Assembly: GCA_964618565.1 (NCBI GenBank) | Contig: CAZUBA010000001.1 | Location: 20,998-84,997, forward strand | Length of the DNA: 64,000 nt | DNA from: an uncultured Candidatus Peribacteria bacterium | Lineage (GTDB): Bacteria > Patescibacteriota > Gracilibacteria > BD1-5 > UBA2023 | Direction: 5' to 3' | Part shown: positions 34,192 through 51,903 of the stretch, in pieces | Numbering within the stretch: the stretch's first letter is position 1 | Layout of the letters: every line of letters begins with the position of its first letter | Notes under the pieces: model-generated | What the model was told of the DNA's origin: nothing | The model's database searches: none | What the model saw: the letters and a program-made list of their open reading frames with translations, nothing else | Made by a program: the position numbers and the translations under genes

Positions 34192-35085
34192 TTAATTTAT
34201 ATATTCTTTATGAAATTCAAGATAGCTAGCAGAACATAAATCTTCTAACTTAAAACCTATTTTTTCAGTTATTAAATTTTTCGCTATTTCACTATCATGA
34301 ACGTAATTAAAGAAAAAAACTTCAGGACTTGTCATAATTCAGAAGCCAAATAATCGCTGTACATATGAATAATAACAAGGGTAATCATCGATTTGATTAA
34401 TGATTCTTTCTTTAATTGGTCATTTTTCAAAATCATCTCAGATAGCTATATTGATTAATCTCGCTATTACATGGATGCAGATATCTATAAGCACAACTCC
34501 CTCTACAAATTCCTCTCTTATAAATCTCAAGTCAAGATCGTTAATTCAGTTATGTATATAATTATGGGATAAGTATTTATATATTCCATAAACAACATCT
34601 TCATGAATTGGATATTTCGACAATTCGGGCTCTTTTACATAGGATATTTGTCAGAGTTTAAATATTCATTCTACTTTAGTTCTACAATTCCTTTCCTCTT
34701 TCCCTGAAAGATGATTATAAAGCCAATTAATATTTTTTTCATAAAAGCTCCTTAAATGTGTTCATGCACTTGTGTAGTATCAAGAGCACAGCATTTTAAA
34801 ACTTAGATGTAGGTCGTCATAGGCCTGTATGATTAGCTGATGATTATCACTGTTGATATTCTTGTCTCCTATAAATCTATCTACCATCTCCATGAGAATC
34901 TGATAATTGTAAAAAGTCCAGTCCAATCATCTTAATTCCCCGAAAATCACTTTTTGTTCTTTTGCAAGAGTTTTAAAGGATTGTTTAAATATTGCTCATT
35001 CTTTTTTGTGCAGTTCTTGGACTTTTTTATATGTAGAGATAAATTTTTCTCTTGGTGGCAACCTTGAAATAAATGTGATTCACAT
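34192..35085 (-). CDS. hypothetical protein
   Basis: 297-aa code-25 ORF MGITFISRLPPREKFISTYKK... No motif recognised. Confidence 0.55.
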
Positions 35086-35206
35086 ATGCTATTTGTTATT
35101 TTTAAATAAGACTAACTGTTAGTGCTTATTATAGTTAAAAGTGCCTAACGGCAAATTATATATTTTAGGCTTAGTTAGGATATTACAGATTCAGTGGAAT
35201 TTTATT

Positions 35207-35812
35207 CTAAACCTGTGATTCAGTTATATTTTCTAATAATGGAATTGCTACAATTTCTAGTTCTTTTTCAACAGTAGATTCTATTTCCTTTGGTTCTTCA
35301 TTTATTTTTAATTCTTTCGAAGGGAATAATTCAGAGAAAGTATATTTCTTTGCTGTCTTATATCTGATAAATTCAATATTCATTGTATCAAATAGTTTGT
35401 TCTTAAATATATCTCATTTCTTTTCCTTATCATGAGTGCAATCATCTAATTCAATACAAAACTTTAATTTTCAGTTTAAATCAGATATTACAAAGTCAAT
35501 ATGCTTCGCTTTTATCTTCTGAAACATACCAAAGGCGATCTTGTCTTTTTTCTGGTCTCTTACTCAGAAGATATCTGCCAATCTAACTTTTGATAGTAGG
35601 ATTACCTCTTTATCTGCAAGATATTCTTCTAACTGCCTATAGAAATTCAGCTCATTAGGGGTAAAGAATATTTTTTCATATACAAACTTCTTTATTTCCA
35701 ATGATTCTTCATCAATTTCTTCTCAGGAATTAAGCTTTTTCAAAAAGCTTATAATTTCTGCAACAGCAAAGATTATTACTAATAATATTGCAAGTGTATA
35801 TATAGGATTCAT
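35207..35812 (-). CDS. DUF2726-domain protein (restriction-endonuclease-like fold) with N-terminal TM anchor
   Basis: 201 aa: MNPIYTLAILLVIIFAVAEII..., ...FFTPNELNFYRQLEEYL...LLSKVRLADIF...HIDFVISD...FCIELDDCTHD... Confidence 0.7.
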
Positions 35813-36388
35813 TATTTGAATTTATTGTTATCCAAGCTAGTGTAACATAAAACTTAATTTATTTCAATTATCTGATTTCTTAGATTTGAATATTTATTGA
35901 AAATTTGTTTATAGTTATTTTTTGGTTTTTCTCTGAGTTAGTTGAGATATAACAATTTTACTATATTAATATAAGGAAAATCACAATAATAGTTGGTGAT
36001 AAAATAAATATAAAAGTGCAACTTATATATTAATTTAACTTTACTATTTATTTTTGTTATTGGCTTTAGAGATAAGGTTGCTTGTTAACATTTTTTTGAA
36101 TTGTTAATTTAGATGATTATTGAATATAGAAAGTTTGTAATTATTTTATTTTTGAAATGAATTTGGTTCTTAATCAGGTATTTAATTATTGAATTTTTTA
36201 TTATATGATATAAGACTTTTTTGATATTAGGATTATTTTAGTTGTATTACAATTTTGAATATATATTATTTTATTGTAGTTATTATTTATCAGAACAATA
36301 AATTATTAATTTGTTAACAAATGTGTTCAGTATTTTTTTATTACCAAAAAATATTTATCATATAGATATATATTAATCTCGTAAATGT

Positions 36389-37057
36389 ATGAATAATAAA
36401 CTCTACCATTCTTCATTGATTAAGCTCATTCCCATTGAATACAATATAGCTTGCAAATATCTTGCAATCCGTACCAGGAATATAGGCAATCTTCAGCTTG
36501 AGACGACAACAAATAATTTTTACAGCCAAGCATGACTAAGCACATATCAATGTTTTCAGAATATTACTGGTTTGAAGCCTTATCTTACAGATAGATTACA
36601 ATATTTTCTGATTCAATCAGAACTTCTAGGGAATACCATAGCTATTGCTGGTGAAGGTGTAGTTGTTTCAAATCAAAAAGCACTTCATTCGATCGTAAGT
36701 CGCAATAATACTGTAGCATTATATAAAGCAATGAATTGAGATGTGATATTATTTGATCAGCAATTTACTTATAAATGACTATTAAAGCCAGATGGAATCG
36801 TTTTGAAAAATGATCGTTTGGTTGTATTCCAGGAAACTGATTGTGCTTCTCAAAGAGTTCGTGTCATAGCAAATAAAGCTAGCATTTACCTTAAGTTTAT
36901 CACTGAGATGATAAATGAATGATACTCAGCCAAAGATATTCGAATTGTGTTTTTTACGACAAATATAAAACGAATCAAGATGCTTTTGAATCTGTGAGTT
37001 TTTTCAAAACTTCAGACATTATGAGTCATTAAGTTTGCAATTAATAATTTGAATTAA
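36389..37057 (+). CDS. Replic_Relax-like (replication-relaxation family) protein, tentative
   Basis: 222 aa. C-terminal half ...KPDGIVLKNDRLVVFQETDCASQRVRVIANKASIYLKF... resembles the PDG...(E/D)xD...K..Y core of that family. The assignment is by eye only. Confidence 0.45.
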
Positions 37058-37069
37058 ATTTTTATCGAT

Positions 37070-37954
37070 ATGGAAAAAGTGAATGTTCATTTCTATCTGG
37101 AATATATGAATGCCCTGGAATTTCTAAGGATTTTTACTGGGCAGTCGTGAACAATTCAAGGGAAAATAAAGAAATATATCAAATGCAGTGATAATTGAGT
37201 GAACTACATAGAATATAACTTGATTAGGAATATCTATTGCGGATGTTTTCAGCGATATACCTTTTCATGTCATAAGCATATTGACAAGGTCTCATATAAT
37301 ATCTCTTGCGTTTCGTTTTTGCAATTATTAATGGAATTTGGTCATATGTTTTCTGATTTGCATCTATCAATTGAAAACCAATCTTATCTCATTAGACATC
37401 CAGAGTGTATAATCTGAATGGCTAAATCAATCAGCGACGTATTTAATAGTGATAATACTCTATGGAAAAGACTCGTTACAGATATAGCAAAACAATACAA
37501 CCAGAAGAGGTACGTGCAATTACTAAATATTTTGGCCATCATAAACTTCGGTGATCCAGAATCCATAGAGATTACTTCACATCGATCTATTCACATCGAT
37601 CTGATTCCTAAATGATATCGATTAAAGGTGTCAAATATTTCAATAGTTGAGATATCAGGGGATATTAATTTGAGGGCAATAAAAATAATTGCAGATACCA
37701 TTAGGCTCAAAAAAATTCGAAACATCTACCTTATAACAAACCAGGCATGAAAGCATAGTCAGCTAATCAATGTAATAAAAGCTATAATTGCAAATCATGC
37801 ATTTCATTCAACAATTTCAGTTTTTCAATCATTAGAAAATATTACCCATAGATATAAAGAAAACAATCTGCATATCTTTTTTGAGGATTCCAATAAATTC
37901 GCATCTTTTCTGAGTTTGCCAGGTAATTCTGGAATTCTTTTGAAGCCCGGCTAA
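37070..37954 (+). CDS. hypothetical protein
   Basis: 294-aa code-25 ORF MEKVNVHFYLEYMNALEFLRIF..., between the Replic_Relax-like gene and the ATPase gene. Confidence 0.55.
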
Positions 37955-38080
37955 ATATAGCACAGCCATTGAATTTAAATCTTCTTTTTTGATATCTATA
38001 AAAATTCCTTTTTTTTCTATAGCTATTATTTAGTGGCAAAAAACGTAATCATATAATTTTATTTTTTTATATATTTAAAT

Positions 38081-40756
38081 ATGACAATCACATATTTATT
38101 ATTAAGCATTTTTGCTTTATCAACGCCGGTTATCCTATATTTTCTTTCAGGGTTTTTATCTTCAAATGACGATAGGGAATATTCGATTATTGAAGTTAAG
38201 CCAAGCCCTATGGATAATCAGCAGATACTATATTCTAAAATGGTTTTGTTTTTGACTCATCTTAAGTCTGTTGCTGAATTAGATGAACCATTTAACATTA
38301 TTTTTGATATTACCAATAATGATAGTATATGATTAAGGTATTTTAGACTTATTGTACCTGAGTCATACCAAAACTTTATCATAACGCTACTACAAAGCGA
38401 TTTTCCTGATTTCAATTGTAGTGTCTCAGAGACTATTAAGGAATGTGATTATTTTTTAAGGTACAATTGATTTATTGTATTCAGAACTAATACAAATAAG
38501 CCTCTTATTAAAAATACAAATATATTTTCTGAAGAATATATTCTTGAAAATCTCAAAACTCTCATAAATTCTGTAGACAAGGGGAGTTTTCAGATTTTAT
38601 TGGAATTTCCGGATGAAATAAATCAGATGATATGAAAAGAGGAATTGGATTCCATAAAAATAGATTCTAACACAATGGAAACAAATTTAAATTATGTCAA
38701 AGACTTAAAGATATCATTTAGATTTCTAAGTTTTGAAACAGATTTTTGCCCTACAGCGGTACCTTCTACCGTATGAGGGATACTAAATTTGAAAGGTAGG
38801 TCAAACATAATATCCAAGGAATTCAGATGATGAAAATATATTACCAGATCGTGATGAATTAAGAATTTTATAATTGATTTATTTTACAGATATATGCATG
38901 GAATTGAACCAAGACTTCAATATTTCTCGAGTGCGGATGCATGTTATTTTTCTGCTAGGGAACTAGCAACCCTATATTCGTTTATATATTGTGATAAAAT
39001 TGATTGATTGCCATATACATTCGGTAATCCCTGAAAAGTCCTTAATAAACAAAAAGAGCTTGAGGAAATCTATGGTGACCATAAACAATTTACCAGGATA
39101 GCACAAATAGCTCATCCAAATTATTGAGAAGAATGGTTTAAGTTAGATATAGAAACAAAAAGAAGACATGTTTATTTTCTTGGTAGAACATGATCTGGTA
39201 AATCGACATGCTTGATTGAAATGATGAAGGATGATATTAAGAATGGTAGATGATTTTGTCTCTTGGATCCACATGGTGATCTTGCAGACAAAATACTCGA
39301 TTCTATTTCATTTGAACGAGCTGAAGATGTTATATATATCGACCCTTCCCATCCATGCTGAAGAGTAGGACTTTGAATTTTTTCTTTTTTACGAGAAATC
39401 CGTAATAGACATTTTAAGTCGAGAAGCACGACTCCAAGCTTACAGGAATTTCGCAGTTACTCTAGTGTACTTGTATCAATGATGGTAACCGCACTTAAAA
39501 GTATAAGTATTGGAGGCAAGGAACAATGGTGACCTAGGCTAGATATGTTGATTAAGTCAATATGATCTGAGCTTTTAAAATATGAGTGCTCTGAGGTATT
39601 GGATATTTCAGCGTACCTTAATTCTGAGGAATTTCGAAAAAGTGTATTGGCAAATATTGATGATCATTTGTTAAAAGAAGAATTGGATTCACTCAATCAA
39701 AAATCTAGTAGAGTTACTGATGAGTGGTTTCAGCCATTAAAAAACCGTCTTGGAATTTTCAATGTTGCATACTTTAGAAATATTTTTTCAGGAACTCCAA
39801 AATTTAGTCTGAAAGAGGCAATGGATTCAAATAAAATATTAATATTCAGGCTTTGATCAGGATTATTGTCTGAGGAGGGGAATTTATTGGGTTCAATAAT
39901 GGTTTCCTTGATTTTTCATCTTTCAATGAGCAATGCTTGAATATGAGAAGATGAGCGTCATGATTTTACTATTTATGCTGATGAATGTCAGAGGTTTGTA
40001 ACGGACGAATTCTCAAAAATATTGTCAGAGGCTAGAAAGTATCGTTTATCATTGGTTTTAGCTAATCAATCTCTATCTCAGTTGAGTGTGAAGAATCCTG
40101 AAACTTTGAATGCTATTTTGGGGAATGTTTGAACTATGGTCTCTTTTGCAGTTTGACCAGAGGATGCTTTAATAATAAGTAAACGTTTCAGGCTTAATTC
40201 CGAAAAATTGGCAAATTTAACTCCACATAAAGCCTATGTAAGTTGTGAACCCTATTCAGATGAGTCATTTTTGGTACAGACATCCGTGGGGGCTTGCGAT
40301 GAGACAGCTAAATATCCTGGAAGGCTAAAAGTAGTGGCTTCAAGTAGTGAAAAATATGGTCTTGAATGTTTTACATCAATAAAGACATACACTGATTGTA
40401 TACTTAAAAGCTCATTATTTTATTTTCTAAAGTCTCATAATACCTTTACTAGAGCTGATTGCAAAAAAAGGTGGAGTTATCATGATAAATCAATCGATAA
40501 ACTTCTTGGTATATTGGATGAACAGTGAATAATCAAAAAACAGACAGAGGATTTATATGGTGCCAATATTGATACTATTATTCTTCTGGAATCTGAATTA
40601 AGAAAAGGGGATATCATTCAATTTGAATATGTGGTAGAGGAGTGTAACGAAAAAGATCCCATTATACTTAGGATGCATTTTGATAAATATGGTTCACTTC
40701 CTTCTTTTTGATATCGTAAAGATGAATTTGAACACGATCTTTTGGAGAATGGATAA
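38081..40756 (+). CDS. membrane-anchored VirD4/TraD/TraG-like (type IV coupling protein-like) P-loop ATPase
   Basis: 891 aa. N-terminal TM MTITYLLLSIFALSTPVILYFLSGFL. Walker A HVYFLGRTGSGKSTCL, ...CLLDPHGDL..., Walker B FTIYADECQRF, ...ARKYRLSLVLANQSLSQL... Three track ORFs (38081, 39599, 40208) lie in the same frame. Confidence 0.8.
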
Positions 40757-40776
40757 TTATATTATCAAATATAAAT

Positions 40777-40811
40777 TAGAATGATTCTTTTTAGAGTCAT
40801 TCTAATTTTTT
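40777..40811 (+). terminator. Rho-independent terminator
   Basis: TAGAATGATTC ttttta GAGTCATTCTA followed by ATTTTTT, directly after the ATPase gene. Confidence 0.55.
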
Positions 40812-40832
40812 CTTATATTAATAATATTCAAG

Positions 40833-40912
40833 TTTACTGATAACAAAAACAACTCTACCCACCTATCAAACATCTCAATAAGTGTGTGGGGAAATTCGTC
40901 TCAAGGCTGCCA
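40833..40912. repeat. junction repeat A (ends in tRNA-Trp 3'-end copy GGCTGCCA)
   Basis: TTTACTGATAACAAAAACAACTCTACCCACCTATCAAACATCTCAATAAGTGTGTGGGGAAATTCGTCTCAAGGCTGCCA. Homologous to repeats B and C. Its 5' part also matches repeat E. Confidence 0.6.
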
Positions 40913-40918
40913 TGAAAA

Positions 40919-40969
40919 ATCAAATAATCCTCCTGCGAAAGCGGGGGGATTATTGATTATATTTTTTCC
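40919..40969 (+). terminator. long GAAA-loop hairpin + T-tract (duplicated at 45649..45716)
   Basis: ATCAAATAATCCTCCTGC gaaa GCGGGGGGATTATTGAT followed by TATATTTTTT. Confidence 0.5.
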
Positions 40970-41127
40970 ATCACAAAAACAACTTGCTTTTTATTGAATA
41001 AAAGCTAATCTTACCTTAAATAATGTTAAAGAAGAAATCTTACATTATTTTTTCTTTAACTTTTCAGTATTTTTCTTTGTTTTAATAAATATTCTCTTTT
41101 AGGATTATCTTTTAATAAATTAAGATT

Positions 41128-44040
41128 ATGTCTAATGCAATACTAAGTAAATTTAATAAATATCATCTTATTAAGGCTACATTGATCATGTTATCATTTA
41201 CGGTCTTTTTTGTTTGAGATGCTTTCGCAGATACAAATGAAAATTGTATTGTCACTATGAATACTAGGTGTACATTCTCAGATTGATGATATCTTGATAT
41301 AACAGGTGTAGAGACAAACTCAACCTTTGTAAGATATATAAGCAAAACAGGTGAAACAATTGGTCAGACACAACTAAACCCATTTGGTTGAGCCTGTATG
41401 TTACCTACAAGATATGGGACAAGATTGCTACCCTCAAGTCATTCTTTTACATCAATACTAGATGGCAAAAATACAATAAACATTCAAGCGGATGTTGAAG
41501 TTTATTATTATTCTTTTGCTAACCTCTGGACATGTCAAAGGCAATTCTCCATACCTTGGTCATATCAGACCAGTCCAGTGTATACCTTCACAGAAAAATC
41601 CTCCTTATCGCTTTTATCATCTGATCCAATTGATTCTGCAACTCAAGTTCCTATTGACTCTCCGATAACTCTTGATTTTTCTGAATGAATAGATTCGACT
41701 TCGATTAAAGATAATATATCGCTTACTTTAAATGGAAATCAGATTGAATATTGATTTTCTCAAAGTGATGACAAAAAAGGAATCAATATCAAATTGACTT
41801 CTTGAAGGTTCGCCCAGAATAAAATTTACGCTCTGACTATCTGAAAAAACTTAAAAGACATATCTTGAAATACTTTGTGAACTGATAAAGTTATCAGCTT
41901 TACAACTGAAGTGATGCCATATAGTCTTTCTCAACAGATCAATAGTCCACAAATGGAAGAAGAACCCCATGATGTTTATCTATGAGAGAAGATATGAAAG
42001 TTTCAATCAGGATCAGGGATAATCCTGAGCGCCATAGTTGATAATTCTTTTTGAAAAAATCTAAATCTTGATTTTGAGGTATATAAATTATGAGAATCAT
42101 TACCTATATATAAAAGATCAACAGAGGTGAATCTTTGAATCTGAACAGTGGTAGTTGATTTTTTGTGAGCTTGAGATTATTATTGGAGAGTAAGGACTTC
42201 TGACGATTCATGAAATTCAAGTGATTGGGCAGATTTCTGAATGAACTTATTCTGAGAATCTGATTTTTCATATTTTTATTGATTTGAACCTTATCCTTAT
42301 GGATACAGGTTTCCTAATGCAAGTGTTGCGGATTGAGTATTGAATTGAATGTGACTTAGCTCTATTGTAAGATGAATCCCACCAAATTCGTTTTTGATTA
42401 ATCAGCCCACAATAATTGATTGAAACAAATGGAATTTATTTAATAATGCATTTGATACATCAACTTTAAAAAATGATGATAGAAAAATGATTGATGCATT
42501 TGAAAGCCTTTGACTTAATACAGATGAGCAATTTCAATGATGAAATTGCTATGGAATGGCTATGTCTCCTGCTATGCAGTTTACTCATTCCGGTTTTATT
42601 CAGACAAATTATTCTAAATTTTCAAATCAAATATGAAATTGAACTATTTGGGATAATATAATTCCACTTGATGTAGATTGAAAAGATGATTGGAATAATT
42701 ATGATGGTAACAAGACCTTAGAAATTATCTTGTCATTTCAGCTTTCTCAAAGTAGCGTACATATTCAAAAAGCAATTCATAATGGTACAAAAAGTCCAGA
42801 TAAAATATTAACAGAATTAAAAAACAATTCTAATAATACTTATGCATTACTTTTTTGGTGAAAAGATAAAAATAATGATGATGTATGACATGCTGTAATC
42901 CCATATAAAGTAGAATGAAATAGGATTTATGTATGGGATAACAATTTTCAATATCCATTTAGGGAAATAAATAATACTGAAATTTATTCATATAATCAAT
43001 ATATAGAGTTATACACAGGAAGTGATTGAAAAATTAAGTGGAAAGATAAAACATATGAATGGAATGAATTTACAGAAATGTCATTAGTAAATTTAGACGA
43101 TATATATAACAATTGATATAAATCAGTGCCAATGTGATTTAATTGAAATGGCACATCATATACGTTATCCTGAAGCTCTAGTATCTATATTTCAGATTCT
43201 CTGTGAAGAGTTTCTTGATTTACCAGCTCGGGTGTAATAGAAGATATTCCATGAGTAGATGTCATAGTTCCTTTGAATGTGACACTTAGCTGAGCAACTA
43301 AAAGTAATCTAAAACAGATATATATACCGGAAAAAATAGATTGACTGACTATTAAAGTCAGTTGAATAAAAGAAGAGAATTATGATCTGAAGATTGCATG
43401 ATGAGATTATTACACTAACATATCTTGAGTAAACACTCTAACAGGACAAATAGATATATTCACGACAACAAATTCATGAATATTTATAGATTTCGATGAT
43501 TCTAAAACCTGAACATACACTTTACTGACAGATAATTTCCAAGACACTCTTACATGAACAGTATTTTCACCTTGAATTGAATCTATAATTCAACCACAGA
43601 AATATATATTTGATTGGAATAAAGTGATGCAAGGTTCTACTAATGCTATATCTTATCAAATTGATATCGATAACGATTGAATATACGATCTGACTAGCAA
43701 TTTTTCACCAGTCCCTAAATCTCTAGATGAAAAATGATCAATATCAGGTTATGTGAAATGAGATACAAATGCGTCTATGGCATGATGGAAGGTATTCATA
43801 GACAAGAACGATAACTGAAAACTGGAAGAATATTCTGAGATTTTTACGACTACAGATAATAAATGATATTATAGATTCGATAATCTAGAGAAATGAAACT
43901 ACAATATAGCTGAAATTCCACATCAAAACTGGAATTTAATCAAACCAACCAATTATAAATATAATCTTTATCTGAATAACTGACAGAATGTCATTAACCT
44001 TGATTTTGTGAATACTTTTACAAAATGAAAAGGCAAATAA
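41128..44040 (+). CDS. large secreted protein L1: signal/TM, Ig-like (SbsA/Big_5-like) segment, papain-like Cys-protease signature, C-terminal SdrD-B-like domain
   Basis: 970 aa: MSNAILSKFNKYHLIKATLIMLSFTVFFVGDAFA..., ...LSSDPIDSATQVPIDSPITLDFSEGID..., ...EQFQGGNCYGMAMSPAMQF...GHAVIPYKVEGNRIYVWDNN..., ...TTDNKGYYRFDNLEKGNYNIAEIPHQNWN... No TAA/TAG in frame. Confidence 0.8.
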
Positions 44041-44058
44041 CTTTAACATAAAAATACT

Positions 44059-44562
44059 ATGAAAATATATATACAAGTATTCATATGAATATTAACACTG
44101 GTCATGTTAGTGCTTTTATGAAAATATTGATATGATTATTACAGATACGAAAGAAATGTTACTATAGAAGAACAAAATAAAAGGAAGATTGATGAGTATA
44201 ATTTTGAACAATTGACAAAAGTAAAAATAATATTAAAAGATATTAAAAGATCAGATAAAAAATTCCAATCTTTAAAGGAATTCAATCATATATATAATGC
44301 AGATATAAACCCAATTAAAAATTGTTATTATATAAAAAATTATGAAGACAACAATAGGGTATTGTATACTTTTTGATTTAAACTAGAATCGAAAAAATAT
44401 AAAGATAAATACTGACTAATTGGCAAGTACGGGACAGTATATTATGTCTATCCAAAATATGATTTGCCTTATAGCAAAGTTTGTTTCTGAACAAAGAAAT
44501 CTTGTACTGACCTTGCATATGACCATTTTGACACCATTATATCAAACCCTTGCGAGGATTAG
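44059..44562 (+). CDS. small membrane-anchored Cys-rich protein S1 (partner of L1)
   Basis: 167 aa. TM MKIYIQVFIGILTLVMLVLLG, conserved ...IDEYNFEQL...PIKNCYY...YPKYDLPYSKVCFGTKKSCTD...ISNPCED*. Paralogs at 48814, 49932 and 51167. Confidence 0.7.
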
Positions 44563-44651
44563 GATATTCTTCTTTTGATTTGATTAAACAATTCCACCCA
44601 CCTATCAAACATATCCATTAGTGTGTGAGAAAAATCATCTCAAGGCTGCCA
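44563..44651. repeat. junction repeat B (ends in GGCTGCCA)
   Basis: ...TTGATTAAACAATTCCACCCACCTATCAAACATATCCATTAGTGTGTGAGAAAAATCATCTCAAGGCTGCCA, immediately after the S1 stop. Confidence 0.6.
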
Positions 44652-44665
44652 TTGACATTTAATAA

Positions 44666-44697
44666 AAATCAGTATATTACTAATACTGATTTTTTTA
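44666..44697 (+). terminator. Rho-independent terminator
   Basis: AATCAGTAT attacta ATACTGATT followed by TTTTTT. Confidence 0.55.
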
Positions 44698-44711
44698 TTT
44701 ATCAAAGCACT

Positions 44712-45539
44712 ATGATGCAATCACGAGTTCCAGATGAGGTTGATTATAACGATGCTCTTGTAAAGATTAGCAACCATTTCAATACTGATGAACGAGTGTT
44801 CTCAATATTTTGATCAGGGTGGAAAGAACAAAAAAGACGCATTCCATTCAGTGATATAGACTTATTTATTATTGAAAGGAATAGCATTCTTCCTTCCTTC
44901 GAAACTGTAGTAGCATTTTGAAAATTACTTGAAGATATTCATCCAAATGTTCCAGTTCAAATACATTGGACAAGTGAGCCAATTCTAAGAAGTCCTCTTT
45001 GCCCTGAAAAACCTTTTCTCGAAGAGACAAAACAATCAAAAGAATGAGAGTTTGCATCGTATTGATATGCAACATATCTTGATAGCATAGCTCAAAATCG
45101 ACAATTCAAAAATGACGACATTTCGATGATGTCTCACTATATTCGGAAAATCGTAAATCAAACTATTCGGCTGGAATCAGTGAAACAAAGCGGTGATCAT
45201 GCAGATATTGTCCGAGTTTTCTGAGCCTATAGGAAAATTTTTGGACTTCTTTCTTTGATTGTACGAATTAAAAATGGATCATCACCATTTTCAAATAGGA
45301 AAGCTGATATTATAGAATCTGCACAAGAAATTATAGGTTCAAACATTATTATAAATGCTGACTTACTTCTTACTTTAGATCAGCCAGATTCCTACAAACT
45401 CCTTGAAATGTTCCATTCTGAAGAACTGGAAAAAGTAGTCATATATTTTAGTCAATTGTATGTCGAGCTTGTTAAAATTTTACAAAGTATACTTTCATTA
45501 CCAGTGAAAGTTAGAGTAGAAGAAGTGTTATCATTTTAA
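44712..45539 (+). CDS. nucleotidyltransferase-domain protein (Pol-beta/MNT/ANT-like)
   Basis: 275 aa: ...VFSIFGSGWKEQKRRIPFSDIDLFII... (GS...DxD NTase motif), then a helical C-terminal half. The track ORF 44625 start lies inside repeat B and is not used. Confidence 0.75.
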
Positions 45540-45632
45540 AACTACTGTGATACTTTTTCCAAACCCTCCAGATCAAACTCCTGAAGCGCTTTTAGAAACT
45601 TCAGTATAAGCAAAGTTTCACCCACAACTCTC

Positions 45633-45644
45633 TGGGGCTGCCAA
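45633..45644. repeat. junction repeat D: 12-nt copy of the tRNA-Trp 3' end (TGGGGCTGCCAA)
   Basis: Identical to 8588..8599 (acceptor 3' strand, discriminator, CCA, plus 1 nt). No matching 5' acceptor strand upstream, so it is not a tRNA. Confidence 0.5.
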
Positions 45645-45648
45645 TATA

Positions 45649-45716
45649 AAATCAAATAATCCTCCTGCGCACCCAAAGGAAGTACTCCTGGGGTAAAAGC
45701 GGGGGGATTATTGATT
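45649..45716 (+). terminator. copy of the 40919 hairpin with a GC-rich insertion in the loop
   Basis: AATCAAATAATCCTCCTGC gcacccaaaggaagtactcctggggtaaaa GCGGGGGGATTATTGATT followed by TATATTTTT. Confidence 0.45.
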
Positions 45717-45887
45717 TATATTTTTCCCCACTACAAAAATAACTTGCTTTTAAAGGAATATAGGCTAATGTTGCTTTAAATAATGTTCAAGAATTGATTC
45801 TTACATTATTTTTCTTTAACTTTTCAATATTTTTCTTTGATTTAAAAAGTATTCTGTTTCAGGATTATCTTTTAATAAATTAAGATT

Positions 45888-48794
45888 ATGTCTAATGCAA
45901 TACTAAGTAAATTCAATAAATATCATTTTATTAAGACCATTTTGATTCTATTATCATTTATGGTCTTTTTTGTTTGAGACGTGTTTGCAGGCGCAAACGA
46001 GAATTGCATCGTCACAATGAATACCAGATGTACATTCTCTGATTGATGATATCTTGATATAACGGGTGTGGAGATAAACTCAACCTTTGTAAGATATATA
46101 AGCAAGACCGGGGAAACACTTTGACTGACTCAGCTCAACCCCTTCGGCTGAGCTTGCATGCTACCAACAAGATATGGAACAAGATTATTGCCTACAAGCC
46201 GTTCATATGCATCAATGGTTGATGGTAAGACAGCAATAAACATCCAGGCAGATGTAGAAGTATATTATTACTCCTTTGCAAATCTCTGGACATGCCAAAG
46301 GCAATTCTCTATACCTTGGTCATATCAGATAAGCCCTGTATATACTTTTATTGAAAAATCATCACTTTCCCTTTTATCTTCAGATCCATCAGATTCCGCT
46401 GTCAAATTTCCGATAACCTCTCCAATAACTCTTAATTTTTCTGAATGAATAGATTCGGCGACAATTAAAGATAATATCACACTTATTACAAATGGAATTC
46501 AAATAGAATATTGATTTTCCCAAAGTGAAGATAAAAAAGAAATATATATTAAGACAACTTCTTGAGCTTTCGGTCAAAATAAAACCTACACTCTGACTAT
46601 TTGAAAAGATTTAAAAGATATATCTTGAAATACTTTCTGATCTGATAAAGTCATCAGTTTCACAACTGAATTGATGTTAAATAACCTTTCTCAAAAAATA
46701 CTGAGCCCACACATGGAGGAAGAAGACCCTCGGGAAGTGCATCTATGAGAAAAAATTTGAAAATATCAATCCGGTTCAGGAATAATATTGAGCGCAAACA
46801 TAAATAATAATCCTTGAGACAAGCTAGATTTTGAAGTATACAAATTATGAAATTTTACACCTATATATACAAAATCTACAGAGGTGAATCTTTGAATCTG
46901 AACAGTGGTAGTTGATTTTTTGTGAGCTTGAGATTATTCTTGGAGGGTAAGGACTTCTGACGATTCATGAAATTCAAGTGATTGGACAGATTTCTGAATG
47001 AGCTTCTTCTGAGAATCTGATTTCTCTTATTTTGATTGATTTGAGCCTTATCCTTATGGTTTTAAGTTTTATAATAGAAGTGTTGCTGATTGAGTATTGG
47101 ATTGAAATGGATTTAGATCGAGAGTTATATGATTTCCGTCTAATCCAATTAAGATATTTGAACCGGCAATAATTGATTGAAATAAATGGACTATATTCAA
47201 TAATGCATTTGATACATCAGAGTTAAAAAAAGACGAGAGGAAAATGATAAATGCATTTAATGGTCTTTGACTTAATTCAGATGAACTATTTCAATGATGA
47301 AATTGTTATGGTATGGCCGTATCTCCTGCTATGCAATTTACACATTCTGGTTTTATACAATCAAATTACCCAAAATTTTCTAGTCAAATTTGAAATTGAA
47401 CTATTTGGGATAATATAAGTCCACTTAGTTTAGACTGAAAAGATCATTGGAATAATTATGATGGCAATAAAATTTTAGAAACTATTTTATCTTTCCAGCT
47501 TTCTCAATATAGTACTCATATACACGAAGCAATGTCTAATGGTATAAAAATACCAGAGGATATAATAGCTCAACTGAAAAAAAATTTAAAAAATAATTAT
47601 GTTTTAATCTTAAATTGAAAAGATGAAAATAATAAAGATATATGACATGCTGTAATTCCTTATAAGGTAGAATGAAATAGAATATATATATGGGATAATA
47701 ACATTCAATATCCCTATAGAGAAATGGAGTCTGATAAAAATTACTCTAACAATCAGTTTATTGAAATTGATAGCAATTGAAAATGGAGGGATCAATTCTA
47801 TTTGGATTATACTAAGTATCGTTTTGATAAAATGAAATTGATAAATTTAGATGCTATATATAATAGCTGAATCAAATCTGCACCAATATGATTTAGCTGA
47901 AGTGGTGCGTCATATACTCTTTCTTGAAGTTCTGATATTTATATCTCTGATTCGTTATGAAGAATTTCATGATTTACAAGCTCGGGGATTTTAGAGGAGA
48001 TTCCATGAATAGATGTGATAGTCCCTTTAAATGTTACTCTTAGTTGAACGGTAAAAAATAATCTGAAACAGATATACATCCCAGAAAAAATAGATTGATT
48101 AACAATAGGAATAAATTGAAAAACAGGAGAGAATTACGATCTAATGATAGCATGATGAAATTATTATGTAAGAATATCATGAGTAGAATCTGGCTCAGGA
48201 CAAACTGATATATATAATGTTTCAAGAGATAATATTTTAATAGATTTTGACAATAAAAAAATATGAGCATATGATTTGCTAGTAGATGATTTTCTAAATG
48301 ATTGAGCAGGATCGATATATAGATGAGAAATGAAATCAGAAACAAATTTACAAGGATATTATATAGATTGGAAAAAGGTAAAAGAAAATGATAAGGAATC
48401 GGTTAAGTACATGTTTGATACAGATTGAGATTGAACTTTTGATATAGAAAGTTATTTTAATGTTATACCAGATAAAGAAAATATAAAATGAAGCATTTCC
48501 TGATATGTCAAATGAGATACAAGCGCTTCTATGGCTTGATGGAAGGTTTTTATTGACAAAAACTGAGACGGTAAATTGCAAGAAAATTCTGAGACTTTTG
48601 CAGTCACGGACAATAGATGATACTATATGTTTGCAAATCTGGACAGATGAAACTATAAAATATTAGAAATTCCTCATCAAAACTGGAATCTGATTAAACC
48701 GACTAATAGTATATTTAATTTATATTTGAATAAATGACAGAATTTTATAAATCTTAATTTTGAAAATTCTTTTACAAAGCGAAAAGGTAAATAA
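45888..48794 (+). CDS. large secreted protein L2 (paralog of L1)
   Basis: 968 aa with the same N-terminus (MSNAILSKFNKYHFIKTILILLSFMVFFVGDVFA...), the same GGNCYGMAVSPAMQF...GHAVIPYKVEGNRIYIWDNN signature and the same EIPHQNWNLIKP end. The region after the protease-like domain diverges from L1. Confidence 0.8.
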
Positions 48795-48813
48795 TAATCT
48801 TAATCCAAGGGTC

Positions 48814-49299
48814 ATGAAAAAAAATAAACAGATAATGACATGAGTGTTTCTATTGTCTTTACTGATATTGGTATGAAGATATTGATATGATTATTTTAGG
48901 TATGAAAGGAATGTGACTTCAGAAGAGTATTCAAAAAGGAAGATAGACGAATATAATTTCGAGCAACTGGAAAAGGTGAAAGACTTATTGAAAAATCTGA
49001 AAAGATCTGATAAGGAATTCCTATCATTGAGTGAGTTCAACAAATTATATAATGCTGAAATAAAGCCTATAAAAAATTGCTATTATGTGAAAAATTATGC
49101 AAGTAGCAACAGAGTATTATATAATTTCTGATTCAAGCTAGAATCAGATAAATATAAGGCCAAGTTATGAACTGAAAATTATATATATCCTAAATATGAC
49201 TTGCCTCGTAGTGAAATTTGTATGTGAACAAAGAGCTCTTGCACTGATGCAGCATATAATTATTTTGTTAATACGATATCCAAACCCTGTAAGGATTAG
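48814..49299 (+). CDS. small membrane-anchored Cys-rich protein S2
   Basis: 161 aa: MKKNKQIMTGVFLLSLLILVG...IDEYNFEQLEKVK...PIKNCYYV...YPKYDLPRSEICMGTKSSCTD...ISKPCKD*. Confidence 0.7.
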
Positions 49300-49305
49300 C
49301 TTGAT

Positions 49306-49908
49306 AATATCTACAATTTTAAAGACACTTTCATTTCTCCCAATATATGACTGATAGTACTTTTTGATAATTCTAAAATCTGAACCTATGATTTGCTAAC
49401 GGCTAATTTCCAAGATACTCTAACCTGAACACTATTCCTTTCTTGAATCACATCTTTATCCCAACCACAGAAATATGTATATGATTGGTCTAAAATTAAA
49501 CATGACACAAATGACTCAATATCCTACTAATTAGATACTGATAACGATTGATCATACAATCAGACAAGCATTTTTTCAGCAGTTCCAAAATCCATAAATG
49601 AAAAATGATCAATATCATGATATGTAAAATGAAATACTAATTCATCAATGGCTTGATGGAAAGTTTTCTTAGACTTAAATTGAGATTGAATATTACAAGA
49701 AAATAAAGAGTCTTTCACTACAACAGATAAAAATTGAAACTACACATTCGATAATCTGGAGAAATGAAATTATGTAATTATTGAAATTCCTCATCAGAAC
49801 TGGAATCAAATAAAACCCAAGAAGAAGTACGACTTTTATTTGAATAGCTGACAAAATGTTCTAAATTTCGATCTTGAGAATATTTTCATTAAATGAAAAC
49901 AGAAGTAG
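49306..49908 (+). pseudogene. orphan 3' fragment of an L-family gene (5'-truncated, in-frame TAA at 49528..49530)
   Basis: Starts with no start codon 7 nt after the S2 stop. Encodes ...LFDNSKIGTYDLLTANFQDTLTG...SISY*LDTDNDG...TTDKNGNYTFDNLEKGNYVIIEIPHQNWNQIKP..., collinear with the L1 C-terminus. Confidence 0.65.
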
Positions 49909-49931
49909 ATTACTTTTTAAACCACTAATTT

Positions 49932-50714
49932 ATGATTATTTTGAATTTCTTAAAATCAAATATGCTCAAGAAAATAGTTGCATATTCAGTCATATTAATT
50001 TTATGATTATGTATTATTGGTATCGGATATAGTTTATTATTTGAACAAGATGAAATTGCCATAGATAGATATAATTTTGAGCAGTTAGAGAAAGTGAAGC
50101 CAATACTTGAAAAAATCTCCAAAACAGCTGATAGATTCTACTCTTTGGATGAGTTCAATAAAAAATTTGGCAAAGATATTATACCAAAAAAAAATTGCTA
50201 TTATGTAACCACAGACTTTAATTGAAATTATCCTTTTATCTTCTGATTTCAGCTTGAATCTTTATTATACAAATTTTTATATTTTTGAAAATATTATGCA
50301 TATCCTAAATATGATATGCCTTATAAAAATTTTTGCATATGATGACCTTGATGATGATGCATAGATTGATCAAGACAAATATTCGAAACAACAATATCTC
50401 ACCAATGTCGTTGAGGAATATCATGACAAGTATATAATGATAGGAATAAAAATTGAATAATTGATATTTGAGAAGGAATAATCACAGATATATTTGTATA
50501 TATTGATGACCCAAATATATCTTATAATATAACATTGGTTGATTGAAACGGCTTCTATCAATTTGCAGATATCGATCCATTGATAACTCATAAAATATGA
50601 ATTAAATATCCTGAAAAATACGAAATTACTTCACCTAAAAAATGATATTATGATATCACTCTCAATAGTAGTCCATTTCAATATTGATTAAACTTCCTAA
50701 TCTCTAAAAAGTAA
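49932..50714 (+). CDS. S-family protein S3 fused to a C-terminal SdrD-B-like domain
   Basis: 260 aa. S-type core (...IDRYNFEQLEKVK...KKNCYYV...YPKYDMPYKNFCIGG...ISHQC) runs on without a stop into ...GGISGQVYNDRNKNGIIDIGEGIITDIFVYIDD...VDGNGFYQFADI... An alternative start is the internal ATG (MLKKIVAYS). Confidence 0.6.
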
Positions 50715-51150
50715 ATGCAATACTATCTTGATCTGAGAAAATACTCGGGAACAATTCTACCTCCTTAGAAACTCTCATAATTACCATCACTGAATATATG
50801 ATCTTTCATCCAACTTCTCATCATTTCCAATATCTCAAAATGAGAAGTGATACATCATATTCTTAAAATGGGATACAAATGCTTCTATGACAGAATGGAA
50901 GGTATTTATTGATAAAAATAATGATTGAAAATTGGAAGAAAACTTAGAACCGTTCCAAGTTACAGATGATAAATGATATTACAGATTCGACAATCTGGAG
51001 AAATGAAGCTATATTATAGCTGAGGTGCCACATCAGAATTGGAATTCAATTAAGCCAAATAACAGTAAATATAATTTTTATCTTAATAACTGACAAAGTG
51101 TTATAAATCTCAATTTCGAGAATAATTTCATTAAGTGAAAAAGCAAGTAA
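50715..51150 (+). pseudogene. second orphan 3' fragment of an L-family gene (frame-disrupted, no usable start)
   Basis: Encodes ...GIYDLSSNFSSFPISQNEKGYIIFLKWDTNASMTEWKVFIDKNNDGKLEE...DDKGYYRFDNLEKGSYIIAEVPHQNWNSIKP...KSK*. The upstream part is shifted or deleted relative to L1. Confidence 0.55.
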
Positions 51151-51166
51151 TAATAATTCAAAATCT

Positions 51167-51646
51167 ATGAAAAAATATATACAAGTAATCGCATGAATAT
51201 TAGCACTAATTGTATTGGTTTTAATATGAAAATATTGATACGATTATTATAGATTCGAAAGAAATGTGACCGCAGAAGAACAAGTTAAGAGGAAGATTGA
51301 TGAATATAATTTTGAACAATTAATTAAAGCTAAGCAAATATTATCTAATATTTGAAAAGATGATAAAAAGTTTTTTACACTTAAGGAATTTAATCAAAAA
51401 TATAATGCTAATATAAAACCTATAAAAAATTGTTATTATGTAAGCAATAGCAATTGAGGTAAGCCATATATATTTTGATTTCAATTAGAGTCTGATAAAT
51501 ATAAATCCATATATTGAACGGGATATTATGCTTATCCAAAATATGACCTACCTTATAGTAAAATTTGTTATTGAACCAAGGCATCTTGCCATGATTTTAC
51601 ATATAATATCTACGAACATACTATATCCAATCCATGCGAAGATTAG
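51167..51646 (+). CDS. small membrane-anchored Cys-rich protein S4
   Basis: 159 aa: MKKYIQVIAGILALIVLVLIG...IDEYNFEQLIKAK...PIKNCYYV...YPKYDLPYSKICYGTKASCHD...ISNPCED*. Confidence 0.7.
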
Positions 51647-51733
51647 TGTATTCGTCTTTGATCTGATTAAACAATTCCACCCACCCATCAAACATGCCCA
51701 TTAGTGTTGAGAAAAAACACTTTAAGGCTGCCA
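51647..51733. repeat. junction repeat C (ends in GGCTGCCAAATA, 12-nt match to the tRNA end plus flank)
   Basis: ...CTGATTAAACAATTCCACCCACCCATCAAACATGCCCATTAGTGTTGAGAAAAAACACTTTAAGGCTGCCA, immediately after the S4 stop. Collinear with repeat B. Confidence 0.6.
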
Positions 51734-51750
51734 AATATAATTAACAAGAA

Positions 51751-51773
51751 ATTCTCCTTCGGGAGGATTTTTG
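51751..51773 (+). terminator. short terminator-like hairpin
   Basis: TTCTCC ttcg GGAGGA followed by TTTTT. Confidence 0.4.
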
Positions 51774-51903
51774 GTTAGTTTTGTAAAGAGAAGATAAATA
51801 TATATGCAATTATCACAGTGACAATAAAGCTCATTTATTTGATAATGAGCTAGCTCTTAAGGATATGATTGAGGATTACATTATGCGCAGAATAATACAA
51901 ATA

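What the first reader, a model, noticed from the sequence alone, without database searches (positions are those of the whole stretch)
40833..51733. Three homologous about 80-nt junction repeats (A, B, C) end in the tRNA 3' end and look like displaced recombinase C-terminal coding ends
Repeats A (40833..40912), B (44563..44651) and C (51647..51733) all end in GGCTGCCA, the 3' end of tRNA-Trp. Read on the minus strand in the same frame as the recombinase WQP codons, A gives WQPGDEFPHTLIEMFDRWVELF... and stays open for 36 codons. B gives WQPGDDFSHTLMDMFDRWVELF... and stays open for 30 codons. Within that stretch four of the A/B nucleotide differences are synonymous third-position changes (GAC/GAT, CTT/CTA, GTA/GTG, GAG/GAA) and the rest are conservative (E/D, P/S, I/M). 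That pattern is expected for coding sequence, not for a spacer. C has TAA right after WQP plus an indel, so it is decayed. The simplest reading is that attP lies inside the recombinase gene, that A is the native 3' end separated by integration (attR), and that B and C are relics of earlier elements of the same family. The repeats would equally contain the P half-site of the serine-integrase att site.
Basis: inference. Interest (0 to 1): 0.7.

Follow-up and report, generated by a model that had tools for sequence, protein, structure and literature searches.

The report
Recombinase gene tails left at island junctions
A mobile defence island in a Gracilibacteria genome inserts into a tRNA gene at a site inside its own recombinase gene, so each insertion cuts off the last ~30 codons and leaves them at the far end of the island; the three repeats are such cut-off ends, an interesting variant of something already seen in streptococcal elements.

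Summary
Repeats A, B and C exist as described and end in GGCTGCCA, the 3' end of tRNA-Trp (8524-8598). I found a fourth junction, D (45545-45643). The genome reads TGA as Gly (code 25, Gracilibacteria). The gene at 10299-8542 is a large serine recombinase (LSR) whose frame runs into the antisense strand of the tRNA. Its homologs do the same at tRNA-Trp and tRNA-Glu. Read in the LSR frame, A and B encode WQPG-D(E/D)F-HTL-MFDRWVELF. Eight of their nine differences fall at third codon positions (dN/dS about 0.1), and C is decayed. Tails of this kind lie in frame directly after LSR C-terminal fragments in five other metagenomic contigs. They also occur at other tRNA cores in Gracilibacteria genomes. 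So the attP core lies inside the LSR gene, and integration exchanges its C-terminal tail. The region 8.6-51.8 kb is a tandem accretion array. It holds one intact 32-kb defence island ending in tail A, followed by recombinase-less relics. Each internal junction joins a newer tail to an older LSR 3' relic and terminator hairpin. No full-length LSR with a contiguous tail was found, and any function of the swap is inferred. Precedents are the rumA-targeting serine integrases of streptococcal ICEs and the SSV-type integrases. I rate it a new variant of a known kind.

The parts
8524..8598 (+). tRNA-Trp(CCA) with encoded CCA. This is the target gene (attB side of attL). Its last 8 nt, GGCTGCCA (8591-8598), are the core shared with every junction.
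   Evidence: ARAGORN; sequence; core count. Synteny rpsB-tsf-tRNA-Trp is shared with L001, L003 and L007.
8542..10299 (-). Large serine recombinase gene, integrated form, 585 aa with 24 TGA=Gly codons. The element-derived part is 10299-8599. Codons WQP (8598-8590) are the antisense of the tRNA 3' end. The last 15 codons, HCESNTARRIWNPEF (8589-8545), are tRNA antisense, followed by the stop at 8544-8542.
   Evidence: Pfam Resolvase 9e-14 and Zn_ribbon_recom 1.2e-6; Recombinase 18.1 bits, below its cut-off. Catalytic domain matches TP901-1 integrase 3BVP. Homologs P0002-P0013 end in tRNA-antisense tails.
8616..8640 (+). Hairpin plus T-run just downstream of the tRNA, lying inside the recombinase codons QKNPSFDEF. 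It is the element-supplied P' arm and a putative tRNA terminator. The motif is family-conserved (QQKNPPEGEF = AAATTCTCCTTCGGGAGGATTTTT in L001).
   Evidence: Read from the sequence. The equivalent hairpins after A and C are called terminator-like by the scan. This one has fewer than 3 GC pairs and is not called.
10300..40804 (.). Cargo of the resident 32-kb element (E1). It carries a type III-like R-M (Mtase 18452-20254, Res 22026-24362), an OLD-family nuclease (20272-22014), DUF2779, GmrSD (29113-30882), SIR2 plus HerA (30930-33924), DUF2726, and a TraD/VirD4-like coupling-protein ATPase (38081-40756).
   Evidence: Pfam scans. There is no GGCTGCCA core and no tail copy inside this region.
40805..40912 (-). 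Tail A: 36 codons, WQPG DEFPHTLIEMFDRWVELF LLSVNLNIINIRKN, with the core at 40905-40912. This is the P arm of E1 and the predicted native 3' end of the recombinase gene in the excised circle.
   Evidence: (tblastn at query residues 568-595).
40913..40960 (+). Right flank of A: a terminator-like hairpin (40923-40954). In the recombinase frame it reads IINNPPAFAGGLFDFS-WQP, a short relic resembling a recombinase 3' end (QQKNPPEGEFLENLN-WQP). It is homologous to the right flank of D.
   Evidence: 40905-40937 vs 45636-45669, 91%.
40961..44561 (+). Cargo of relic unit E2: a 970-aa secreted Big_5/CarboxypepD_reg protein (41128-44040) and a 167-aa 'S' gene (44059-44562). There is no recombinase.
44562..44651 (-). 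Tail B: 30 codons, WQPG DDFSHTLMDMFDRWVELF NQIKRRIS, with the core at 44644-44651. Its frame is intact. It differs from A almost only at third codon positions.
44652..44700 (+). Right flank of B: TTGACATTTAATAAAA plus a hairpin and T-run. It is homologous to the flank beyond the decayed junction in L007, which is followed there by a 916-aa secA-like ORF.
45545..45643 (-). Junction D, new in this analysis. It carries 11 nt of the tRNA 3' end (TGGGGCTGCCA) and a different 33-codon open tail, WQPQRVVGETLLILKFLKALQEFDLEGLEKVSQ. Its right flank (45644-45715) is homologous to that of A.
45644..51646 (+). Relic unit E4. It holds a paralog of E2 (big protein 45888-48794 and S gene 48814-49299, 75% nt identity) plus two further partial copies of the big-protein C-terminus and S module (49362-50714 and 50791-51646).
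51647..51733 (-). Tail C: a decayed copy with TAA after WQP, a 1-nt deletion, and changes mostly at codon positions 1 and 2. The core GGCTGCCAAATA (51726-51737) shares 12 nt with the tRNA end plus its downstream bases.
51734..51832 (-). Relic of the 3' end of an older recombinase gene (...YIYLLFTKLTKNPPEGEFLVNYI-WQP), including the terminator-like hairpin at 51747-51772. It lies in frame with tail C.
   Evidence: tblastn at query residues 536-570, 41.7%. The 28-nt stretch CAAGAAATTCTCCTTCGGGAGGATTTTT is identical to the recombinase 3' end in L001.

Best explanation
The repeats are the displaced 3' coding ends ('tails') of large-serine-recombinase genes, left at the far ends of genomic islands that integrate into the 3' end of tRNA-Trp. 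In the excised circle (inferred), the attP core is the antisense of the last 8 nt of the tRNA (TGGCAGCC = codons W-Q-P). It lies about 33 codons before the recombinase stop codon. The complete protein is then body + WQP + G + DEFPHTLIEMFDRWVELF... (603 aa with tail A). Recombination within GGCTGCCA rebuilds the tRNA exactly. It also places an element-encoded terminator hairpin, which doubles as the QKNPxxxEF codons, behind the tRNA. The recombinase frame is redirected into the tRNA antisense strand, giving the new tail HCESNTARRIWNPEF. The native tail is left 32.3 kb away at the other island end (A). Repeated integration at the regenerated tRNA pushed older elements outward. Those elements lost their recombinases and decayed into short att-flanked units. 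Each internal junction therefore joins the tail of the newer element, the core, and the 3' relic and terminator of the older recombinase gene. This gives A, B, D and C. What is shown: the anatomy, the coding-type constraint on A and B, the decay of C, in-frame recombinase-relic plus tail junctions in other genomes, and family-wide reading into tRNAs. What is inferred: the circular form, the crossover position, translation of the tail, and any functional consequence of the tail swap.
For: (1) An intact LSR sits next to the tRNA and reads into it. Close homologs do the same at tRNA-Trp (L001, L003) and at tRNA-Glu(CTC) (L013). More distant ones end in T-arm antisense peptides such as ESN or EP. 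(2) The core and repeat counts are far above chance. (3) The A/B differences are 8 of 9 at third positions, with dN/dS about 0.1, while C shows mostly position-1/2 changes, a stop and a frameshift. (4) Tails lie in frame after recombinase C-terminal sequence in L004, in L008 (twice), in L015 and in L017. In the window, a recombinase relic abuts tail C. (5) The tail motif HT(L/F)x(E/D)MFDRW(V/I)ELF recurs behind different cores: TGGCAGCC for Trp, TGGTGA (a core that begins like the tRNA-Glu end, TGGTGACG, read in L013) and TGGCAGAG. A diverged subtype, LLLANFIQHYDEVKE, aligns to it. (6) The conserved block lies 27-66 nt from the CCA, beyond the roughly 25-bp half-site of characterised serine-integrase attP sites (established knowledge, recalled). 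The part nearest the core varies with the target. (7) No plus-strand gene can explain it. (8) Evidence for hybrid junctions: L015 and L017 share 48 identical tail nucleotides behind recombinase relics that are only about 50% alike. L016 and L017 share one relic but diverge right after WQGDC.
Against: No full-length recombinase with a contiguous tail was recovered from 5.8 billion proteins or from the collections scanned. Every contiguous example is a truncated hybrid relic. The searches that found the other tails were protein-biased. Only the A/B comparison is unbiased, and it covers just 22 codons. The antisense phase that shares third positions is also open in 7 of 11 tails. No attP or empty attB junction was observed. 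The structure model of the tail-bearing fragment has low confidence (pLDDT 57). The order of the relic units is not fully explained: a flank like the one that precedes a secA-like ORF in L007 sits after B, not at the end of the array.
Confidence: 0.8

Rival explanations
1. The repeats are conserved only as DNA. They would be the P arm of attP, bound by the recombinase or an accessory or directionality factor. The open frame would be incidental read-through with no functional peptide.
For: They are certainly part of the att sites, since each ends in the core. ATGTTTGATAGGTGG is invariant even at synonymous sites in A, B and L004. L015 and L017 share 48 identical nucleotides. The AlphaFold model of the tail has low confidence.
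Against: Differences concentrate at third positions, with dN/dS about 0.1. The conserved block lies 27-66 nt from the CCA, outside known serine-integrase half-sites. Type 1 and type 2 tails are similar as proteins but not as DNA. The frame is kept open to just past ELF in 10 of 11 copies.
Confidence: 0.12
2. The repeats are a plus-strand feature: a 3'-UTR, terminator or small-RNA module of the upstream 'S' genes, or a short plus-strand ORF.
For: B and C start exactly at the stop codons of paralogous S genes. The plus-strand phase that shares third positions is open in A and B and gives 18 of 21 identical residues.
Against: A follows a different gene and its own terminator. S-gene copies at 49299 and 50714 lack the repeat. 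In other genomes the tail follows AbiEii, an Asp/Glu racemase gene and a MazF-like gene. The plus frame has no ATG, runs through the tRNA core and hairpin, and carries stops in L008, L015 and L017.
Confidence: 0.03
3. Some junctions, D in particular, were made by a different integrase family that uses the same tRNA-Trp site, for example a tyrosine integrase with a longer identity block. In that case not all cores belong to the serine-recombinase system.
For: D shares 11 nt rather than 8 with the tRNA end. Its tail is unrelated in sequence to A, B and C and has no relative in any fetched locus.
Against: No tyrosine recombinase domain was found in the window proteins scanned. D is in the same frame and register (WQP...) and stays open for 33 codons. 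Its right flank is homologous to that of A.
Confidence: 0.05

Closest known systems
Single serine integrases of Streptococcus ICEs/IMEs that target rumA (Ambroset et al. 2016, PMC4701971; Guedon et al. 2017, PMC5704250)
   Same: The direct repeat lies inside the serine-integrase gene at one end of the element. Integration exchanges the 3' part of the integrase gene and changes the sequence and length of its C-terminus. The domain set is the same: Resolvase, Recombinase and Zn ribbon.
   Different: Their target is a protein-coding gene, which is disrupted or altered. Here the target is a tRNA gene that is rebuilt exactly and given a new terminator. Here the displaced tail is a conserved peptide under purifying selection across different targets. 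The host is a code-25 candidate-phylum bacterium. Sequence relatedness to the streptococcal enzymes was not tested.
SSV-type 'suicidal' tyrosine integrases of archaeal viruses and plasmids (Badel et al. 2020, PMC7253208)
   Same: The att site lies inside the integrase ORF. Integration into a tRNA gene partitions the gene. Fragments of different origin can be reassembled into hybrid genes. This parallels the hybrid tail and relic junctions seen here.
   Different: The catalytic family is unrelated (tyrosine versus serine). SSV integration splits the enzyme into two inactive pseudogenes. Here only the last ~33 codons are exchanged, and the catalytic, recombinase and zinc-ribbon domains stay intact.
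Tandem accretion of integrative elements and CIMEs (reviewed in PMC5704250); SCCmec-type composite islands made by Ccr serine recombinases (recalled from memory)
   Same: An autonomous element lies next to recombinase-less units, each bounded by copies of the att core that carries the 3' end of the target gene (for the accretion/CIME concept).
   Different: Classical examples mostly involve tyrosine integrases at tRNA or ribosomal-protein genes, or Ccr at rlmH. Here each internal junction also reconstitutes an in-frame recombinase-3'-relic plus tail reading frame.
Islander-type tDNA genomic islands (Hudson et al. 2015, PMC4383910)
   Same: An intact tRNA sits next to the integrase, with a displaced 3' tDNA fragment marking the far end of the island.
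   Different: That paper states that such integration is 'catalyzed by tyrosine integrases'. Here the enzyme is a large serine recombinase, and the duplicated tDNA fragment is only 8 nt.

Membership tests
Large serine recombinase (serine integrase) | N-terminal resolvase-type catalytic domain with a serine nucleophile | tested here: met
   PF00239 at 9.1e-14, 52 bits. The LTRVSSEKQ motif aligns to YTRVSTTNQ of the TP901-1 integrase catalytic domain 3BVP.
Large serine recombinase (serine integrase) | Recombinase domain (PF07508) after the catalytic domain | tested here: inconclusive
   18.1 bits, against a gathering cut-off of 21.1. Homologs P0007, P0013 and P0014 carry a precomputed PF07508 hit.
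Large serine recombinase (serine integrase) | Zinc-ribbon domain (PF13408) | tested here: met
   29.2 bits, against a cut-off of 25.3, at residues 340-398.
Large serine recombinase (serine integrase) | Recombination between short attP and attB sites with a 2-bp crossover and little further identity | not testable with these tools
   An 8-nt shared core is compatible with this. The crossover position and activity need an experiment.
tDNA-integrated genomic island (Islander definition) | Intact tRNA gene at one end and a displaced 3' fragment of it as a direct repeat at the other | tested here: met
   tRNA-Trp at 8524-8598, with GGCTGCCA repeated at 40905, 44644, 45636 and 51726.
tDNA-integrated genomic island (Islander definition) | Tyrosine integrase next to the tRNA | tested here: not met
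   The adjacent gene is a serine recombinase. No Phage_integrase domain appears in the window proteins scanned.
Integrases with the att site inside their own ORF (SSV type) | att core within the coding sequence, so that integration partitions the gene | tested here: met
   The core equals codons WQP. In-frame tails occur at the junctions and after recombinase fragments elsewhere.
Integrases with the att site inside their own ORF (SSV type) | Tyrosine recombinase split into two inactive halves | tested here: not met
   This is a serine recombinase. All recognised domains remain in one ORF of 585 aa after integration.
rumA-type streptococcal single serine integrases | Direct repeat in the 3' part of the serine integrase gene, with the C-terminus exchanged on integration | tested here: met
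   The same architecture is inferred here. It is described for streptococci in PMC4701971.
rumA-type streptococcal single serine integrases | Target is rumA, with sequence relatedness to those integrases | not tested
   The target here is tRNA-Trp. No streptococcal protein appeared among the hits, but no direct comparison was made.
Accretion array / CIME | Units without an integrase, bounded by att copies and adjacent to an autonomous element | tested here: met
   Units 40913-44651, 44652-45643 and 45644-51733 have no recombinase gene and have cores at both ends.
Accretion array / CIME | Mobilisation in trans by the neighbour's recombinase | not testable with these tools
   This needs excision assays.

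The most novel reading that the evidence does not exclude
The tail exchange is a built-in state switch. The recombinase made from the circle carries the conserved amphipathic tail (HTLxEMFDRWVELF) and is competent for integration. The integrated gene makes a protein with a tRNA-encoded tail of different activity, stability or directionality. The element would thus record its own integration state in the C-terminus of its recombinase without a separate directionality factor. In arrays, tails would also be exchangeable modules between elements.
Probability: 0.2. Interest if true: 0.75.

Novelty: new variant of a known kind. Interest (0 to 1): 0.5.

Why it matters
The finding extends tRNA-targeted island integration, usually attributed to tyrosine integrases, to a family of large serine recombinases in a recoded candidate-phylum lineage (Gracilibacteria). 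It shows that their attP sits inside the recombinase gene. It gives a concrete rule for delimiting islands in these genomes: tRNA, then a recombinase reading into it, and an in-frame MFDRWVELF-type tail at the far end. It also explains short 'orphan' ORFs made of a recombinase C-terminal fragment plus a tail as fossils of accretion. The displaced tail is conserved at the protein level across elements with different tRNA targets. This makes a testable hypothesis: the C-terminus differs functionally between the excised and integrated states. That matters for directionality control and for using such enzymes as genome-engineering tools. The islands carry dense anti-phage cargo, so the system is also a route by which defence genes move in these episymbiotic bacteria.

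Tried and rejected
P0016 was used instead.
- Two scans of viral contigs found nothing, one with the tail DNA pattern and one with the C-terminus plus tail profile.
- L005 (61% GC) matched the DNA pattern inside an unrelated 456-codon ORF and was discarded as a chance hit.
- A weak tail-like hit in L013 (3077-3148, E = 0.12) lies inside a 272-aa ORF and lacks the core. It was rejected.
- attR was not within the 10 kb obtainable upstream of the recombinases in L001, L003, L013 or L014. Recombinase-to-own-tail pairing could therefore not be checked in a second genome.
- P0010 (L002, standard code) ends in a non-tRNA peptide and was considered as a possible excised form. Its tail is unrelated and the contig shows no terminal overlap.
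- AlphaFold on the 77-aa relic with a 19-row alignment gave pLDDT 57 and only a low-confidence helix for the tail. No fold search was attempted.
- Periodicity alone cannot tell the recombinase frame from the antisense phase that shares third positions. This was resolved by stops in other loci and the lack of any start codon or gene context.
- Literature searches found no paper linking Gracilibacteria with serine recombinases.

Full report
**Genetic code and setting**

With TGA as a stop, the window's ORFs of at least 100 codons total only about 14 kb. With TGA as sense they total about 95 kb (both strands, overlaps included). A Walker A motif reads GRTxSGKST. The TGA codons of the recombinase align to Gly at 30 of 69 aligned positions in three standard-code homologs, and never to Trp. 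The only related genomic loci found are Candidatus Gracilibacteria MAGs. The window is therefore a code-25 (TGA = Gly) Gracilibacteria sequence at 29.6% GC. All translations below use that code.

**The observation**

- ARAGORN finds one tRNA, tRNA-Trp(CCA), at 8524-8598 on the + strand. It ends ...TGGGGCTGCCA.
- A 19-nt stretch of the repeat occurs 3 times against 0.01 expected.
- GGCTGCCA occurs 5 times against 0.19 expected: at the tRNA end, at A, B and C, and at a fourth site, D, at 45636-45643.

**The recombinase**

The ORF at 10299-8542 on the minus strand encodes 585 aa. It has a Resolvase domain (9e-14) and a zinc ribbon (above cut-off). Its Recombinase-domain hit is sub-threshold. The catalytic domain aligns to the TP901-1 integrase structure.

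The last codons read SIWQP-HCESNTARRIWNPEF. TGG-CAG-CC is the antisense of the tRNA 3' end, and the remaining residues are tRNA antisense down to a TAA in the D arm.

Fifteen homologs were found in 5.8 billion proteins. Nearly all of them end the same way, for example ...WQPQLESNRPRRIWSPEF or ...WHPHKESNLARRIWSPAF. The distant members P0012 and P0013 end in T-arm antisense peptides. The fetched loci confirm the arrangement. In L001 and L003 the gene abuts tRNA-Trp next to tsf and rpsB, syntenic with window positions 5939-7987. In L013 it abuts tRNA-Glu(CTC). This is a family of serine recombinases that integrate at tRNA 3' ends, with the core inside their own reading frame.

**Is the tail coding?**

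A and B differ at 9 positions in 22 codons. Eight of these are third positions (P about 0.003 allowing for three phases). Nei-Gojobori dN/dS is about 0.1. C differs from B mostly at first and second positions and has lost its frame, as expected for a relic.

One caveat is that the antisense phase sharing third positions is equally well preserved between A and B. That phase has no ATG, runs through the tRNA core and the hairpin, and follows a terminator in A. It also carries stop codons in L008, L015 and L017. The recombinase-sense frame is therefore the one under selection.

**Is the tail part of a recombinase?**

A profile made from the recombinase C-terminus plus the tails retrieved P0016:

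MDFRFVFQEKPTYEEISSHTPKIYPIFALRSQQKILHEGEFLENTGWQSSGQISHTFVEMFDRWIELFLVSGGKYGF

This is recombinase C-terminal sequence running straight into an A/B-type tail.

A degenerate DNA pattern for MFDRW(V/I)ELF found more copies in metagenomes:

- L008 has two sites where tblastn with the fused protein spans the junction, at query residues 506-592 (66.7% identity) and 536-592.
- L009 and L010 carry the same tail after WQP.
- L006 and L011 carry it after TGGTGA, a core that begins like the tRNA-Glu end (TGGTGACG) read in L013.
- L007 carries a decayed copy 0.7 kb from tRNA-Trp, behind a MazEF-like pair.
- L012 carries one 1.35 kb from tRNA-Glu(CTC).

An exhaustive HMMER search with P0016 and a second profile search added a diverged tail subtype, WQ(D/G)DCLLLANFIQHYDEVKE. 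It occurs in P0018, P0039 and P0041 and aligns column for column with type 1.

**The contiguous examples are hybrid relics, which reveals the array**

None of the contiguous examples is a full-length gene. Each is a truncated 3' fragment of 45-85 codons.

- P0016 opens right after an AbiEii gene.
- P0018 opens right after an Asp/Glu racemase gene.
- L015 and L017 share 48 identical tail nucleotides behind recombinase fragments that are only about half identical.
- L016 and L017 share one fragment but diverge immediately after WQGDC.

This is what tandem accretion predicts. A new element integrates into the regenerated tRNA. Its P arm (the tail) then becomes joined, in frame, to the P' arm (the recombinase 3' end) of the older element.

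The window shows the same pattern. The flank to the right of C reads ...LTKNPPEGEFLVNYI-WQP and matches recombinase residues 536-570. Twenty-eight of its nucleotides are identical to the recombinase 3' end in L001. The flanks to the right of A and D are homologous to each other. They read IINNPPAF...WQP around a strong hairpin. The flank to the right of B resembles the flank that precedes a secA-like ORF in L007.

All right flanks carry a hairpin 10-25 nt after the CCA. In intact genes this hairpin is the conserved QQKNPPEGEF motif. The element therefore appears to bring a terminator for the tRNA inside its own recombinase codons. This is read from the sequences. The scan calls the hairpins after A and C terminator-like, but not the weaker one at 8616-8640.

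**Map of the region**

| Unit | Coordinates | Content |
|---|---|---|
| Target | 8524-8598 | tRNA-Trp |
| E1 | 8599-40912 | Intact recombinase; defence cargo (type III-like R-M, OLD, GmrSD, SIR2-HerA, DUF2779, DUF2726); a TraD/VirD4-like ATPase; tail A |
| E2 | 40913-44651 | Hairpin relic; 970-aa secreted Ig-like protein; S gene; tail B |
| E3 | 44652-45643 | Flank; weak nucleotidyltransferase-like ORF; tail D |
| E4 | 45644-51733 | Paralog of E2 at 75% nt identity, with extra partial copies; decayed tail C |
| Relic | 51734-51832 | Older recombinase 3' end |

Housekeeping-type genes (ApbE and a ferric-reductase-like gene) appear from about 59 kb. The outer boundary of the array was not located.

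**Mechanism**

Inferred steps are as follows. The circular form carries an attP whose core is the WQP codons. Crossover occurs within GGCTGCCA. The tRNA is rebuilt. The recombinase exchanges a conserved tail of about 33 residues for 15 tRNA-encoded residues.

The most conserved part of the tail lies 27-66 nt from the CCA. That is beyond the roughly 25-bp half-sites known for characterised serine integrases (established knowledge, recalled, not tested here). The segment nearest the core varies with the tRNA target. This points to protein-level constraint on the tail, but DNA-level roles cannot be excluded.

Whether the swap changes activity, stability or directionality is unknown. An AlphaFold model of the relic gives only a low-confidence helix for HTFVEMFDRWIELFLV.

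**Comparison with known systems**

- Ambroset et al. 2016 describe rumA-targeting single serine integrases of streptococcal ICEs. The direct repeat lies in the integrase gene, and integration exchanges the 3' parts of rumA and the integrase gene, altering both C-termini. This is the closest precedent.
- SSV-type archaeal tyrosine integrases also carry the att site in their ORF and form hybrids from fragments of different origin. They are split into inactive halves and belong to another enzyme family.
- Accretion and CIMEs are established concepts.
- tRNA-targeted islands are described as the work of tyrosine integrases.
- No paper linking Gracilibacteria with serine recombinases was found.

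**Verdict**

There is a fourth junction. A is an internal hybrid junction of an accretion array, not a simple attR next to chromosome. The contiguous database examples are hybrid relics, not intact genes.

This is a new variant of a known kind. I score interest at about 0.5. It would rise if the tail swap proves to be a functional switch.

Noticed in passing
It has 11 nt of the tRNA 3' end and an unrelated 33-codon open tail, WQPQRVVGETLLILKFLKALQEFDLEGLEKVSQ. No relative of this tail was found in any fetched locus.
   Followed up: partly
window 8616-8640; 40923-40954; 51747-51772; L001 around 11660-11710: The family-conserved recombinase motif QQKNPPEGEF is encoded antisense to a hairpin plus T-run placed 10-25 nt after the tRNA CCA. 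The recombinase 3' end thus seems to double as a replacement terminator for the tRNA after integration.
   Followed up: partly
window 41128-44562, 45888-49299, 49362-50714, 50791-51646: There are two full and two partial paralogous copies of a module encoding a ~970-aa secreted Big_5/CarboxypepD_reg protein plus a ~165-aa membrane-anchored 'S' protein, at about 75% nt identity. [quoted passage not shown] This may be a variable surface-protein cassette.
   Followed up: no
window 18452-35812: The cargo is a dense anti-phage set: type III-like R-M (Mtase and Res), OLD-family ATPase/TOPRIM nuclease, DUF2779, GmrSD, SIR2-like plus HerA, and DUF2726. Homologous islands in L001, L003, L014 and L016 also carry R-M, Abi and helicase genes.
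   Followed up: partly
window 38081-40756: An 891-aa ATPase with weak TraG-D_C, TrwB and DUF87 hits (a type IV coupling-protein-like protein) is the last gene of the 32-kb element. The P0004 element (L013) carries an FtsK/SpoIIIE gene. This hints that the islands are mobilisable, although no relaxase or T4SS was recognised.
   Followed up: no
L004 752-792 and 981-1017: The recombinase relic plus tail in this contig is bracketed by a ~35-bp imperfect direct repeat. A copy of the tail's own 3' end (…GGAGG(G)AAATAT…GGATTTTA) also precedes the relic, directly after an AbiEii gene. The origin is unexplained; it may be a deletion through microhomology or a further accretion scar.
   Followed up: no
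L007 4700-5470: This is a minimal islet at tRNA-Trp. It holds only a MazEF-like toxin-antitoxin pair and a decayed tail (core mutated to TAGTAGCC), flanked by ~70-nt direct repeats that include the tRNA terminator hairpin. A 916-aa secA-like ORF follows.
   Followed up: partly
L016 10001-10429 vs L017 1335-1679: The same recombinase relic, preceded by the same unrelated 40 codons, is followed by different DNA immediately after WQGDC in two assemblies. In L017 it is a type 2 tail. In L016 it is a 51-codon different continuation leading into an R-M/helicase island. This suggests alternative occupants of one site in a population.
   Followed up: partly
tails A and B (window 40901-40903, 44640-44642), L008, L006, L011: A TGA (Gly in code 25) sits at or within a few codons after the core in most tails. 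Gene callers using code 11 end the recombinase ORF there. This is why database proteins such as P0017, P0036 and P0037 stop at ...EFLENL, and why the tail is invisible in standard annotation.
   Followed up: partly
window 7998-8465: A 155-aa ORF lies between tsf and tRNA-Trp. It had no blastp match among the ORFs of the syntenic loci L001, L003 and L007.
   Followed up: no
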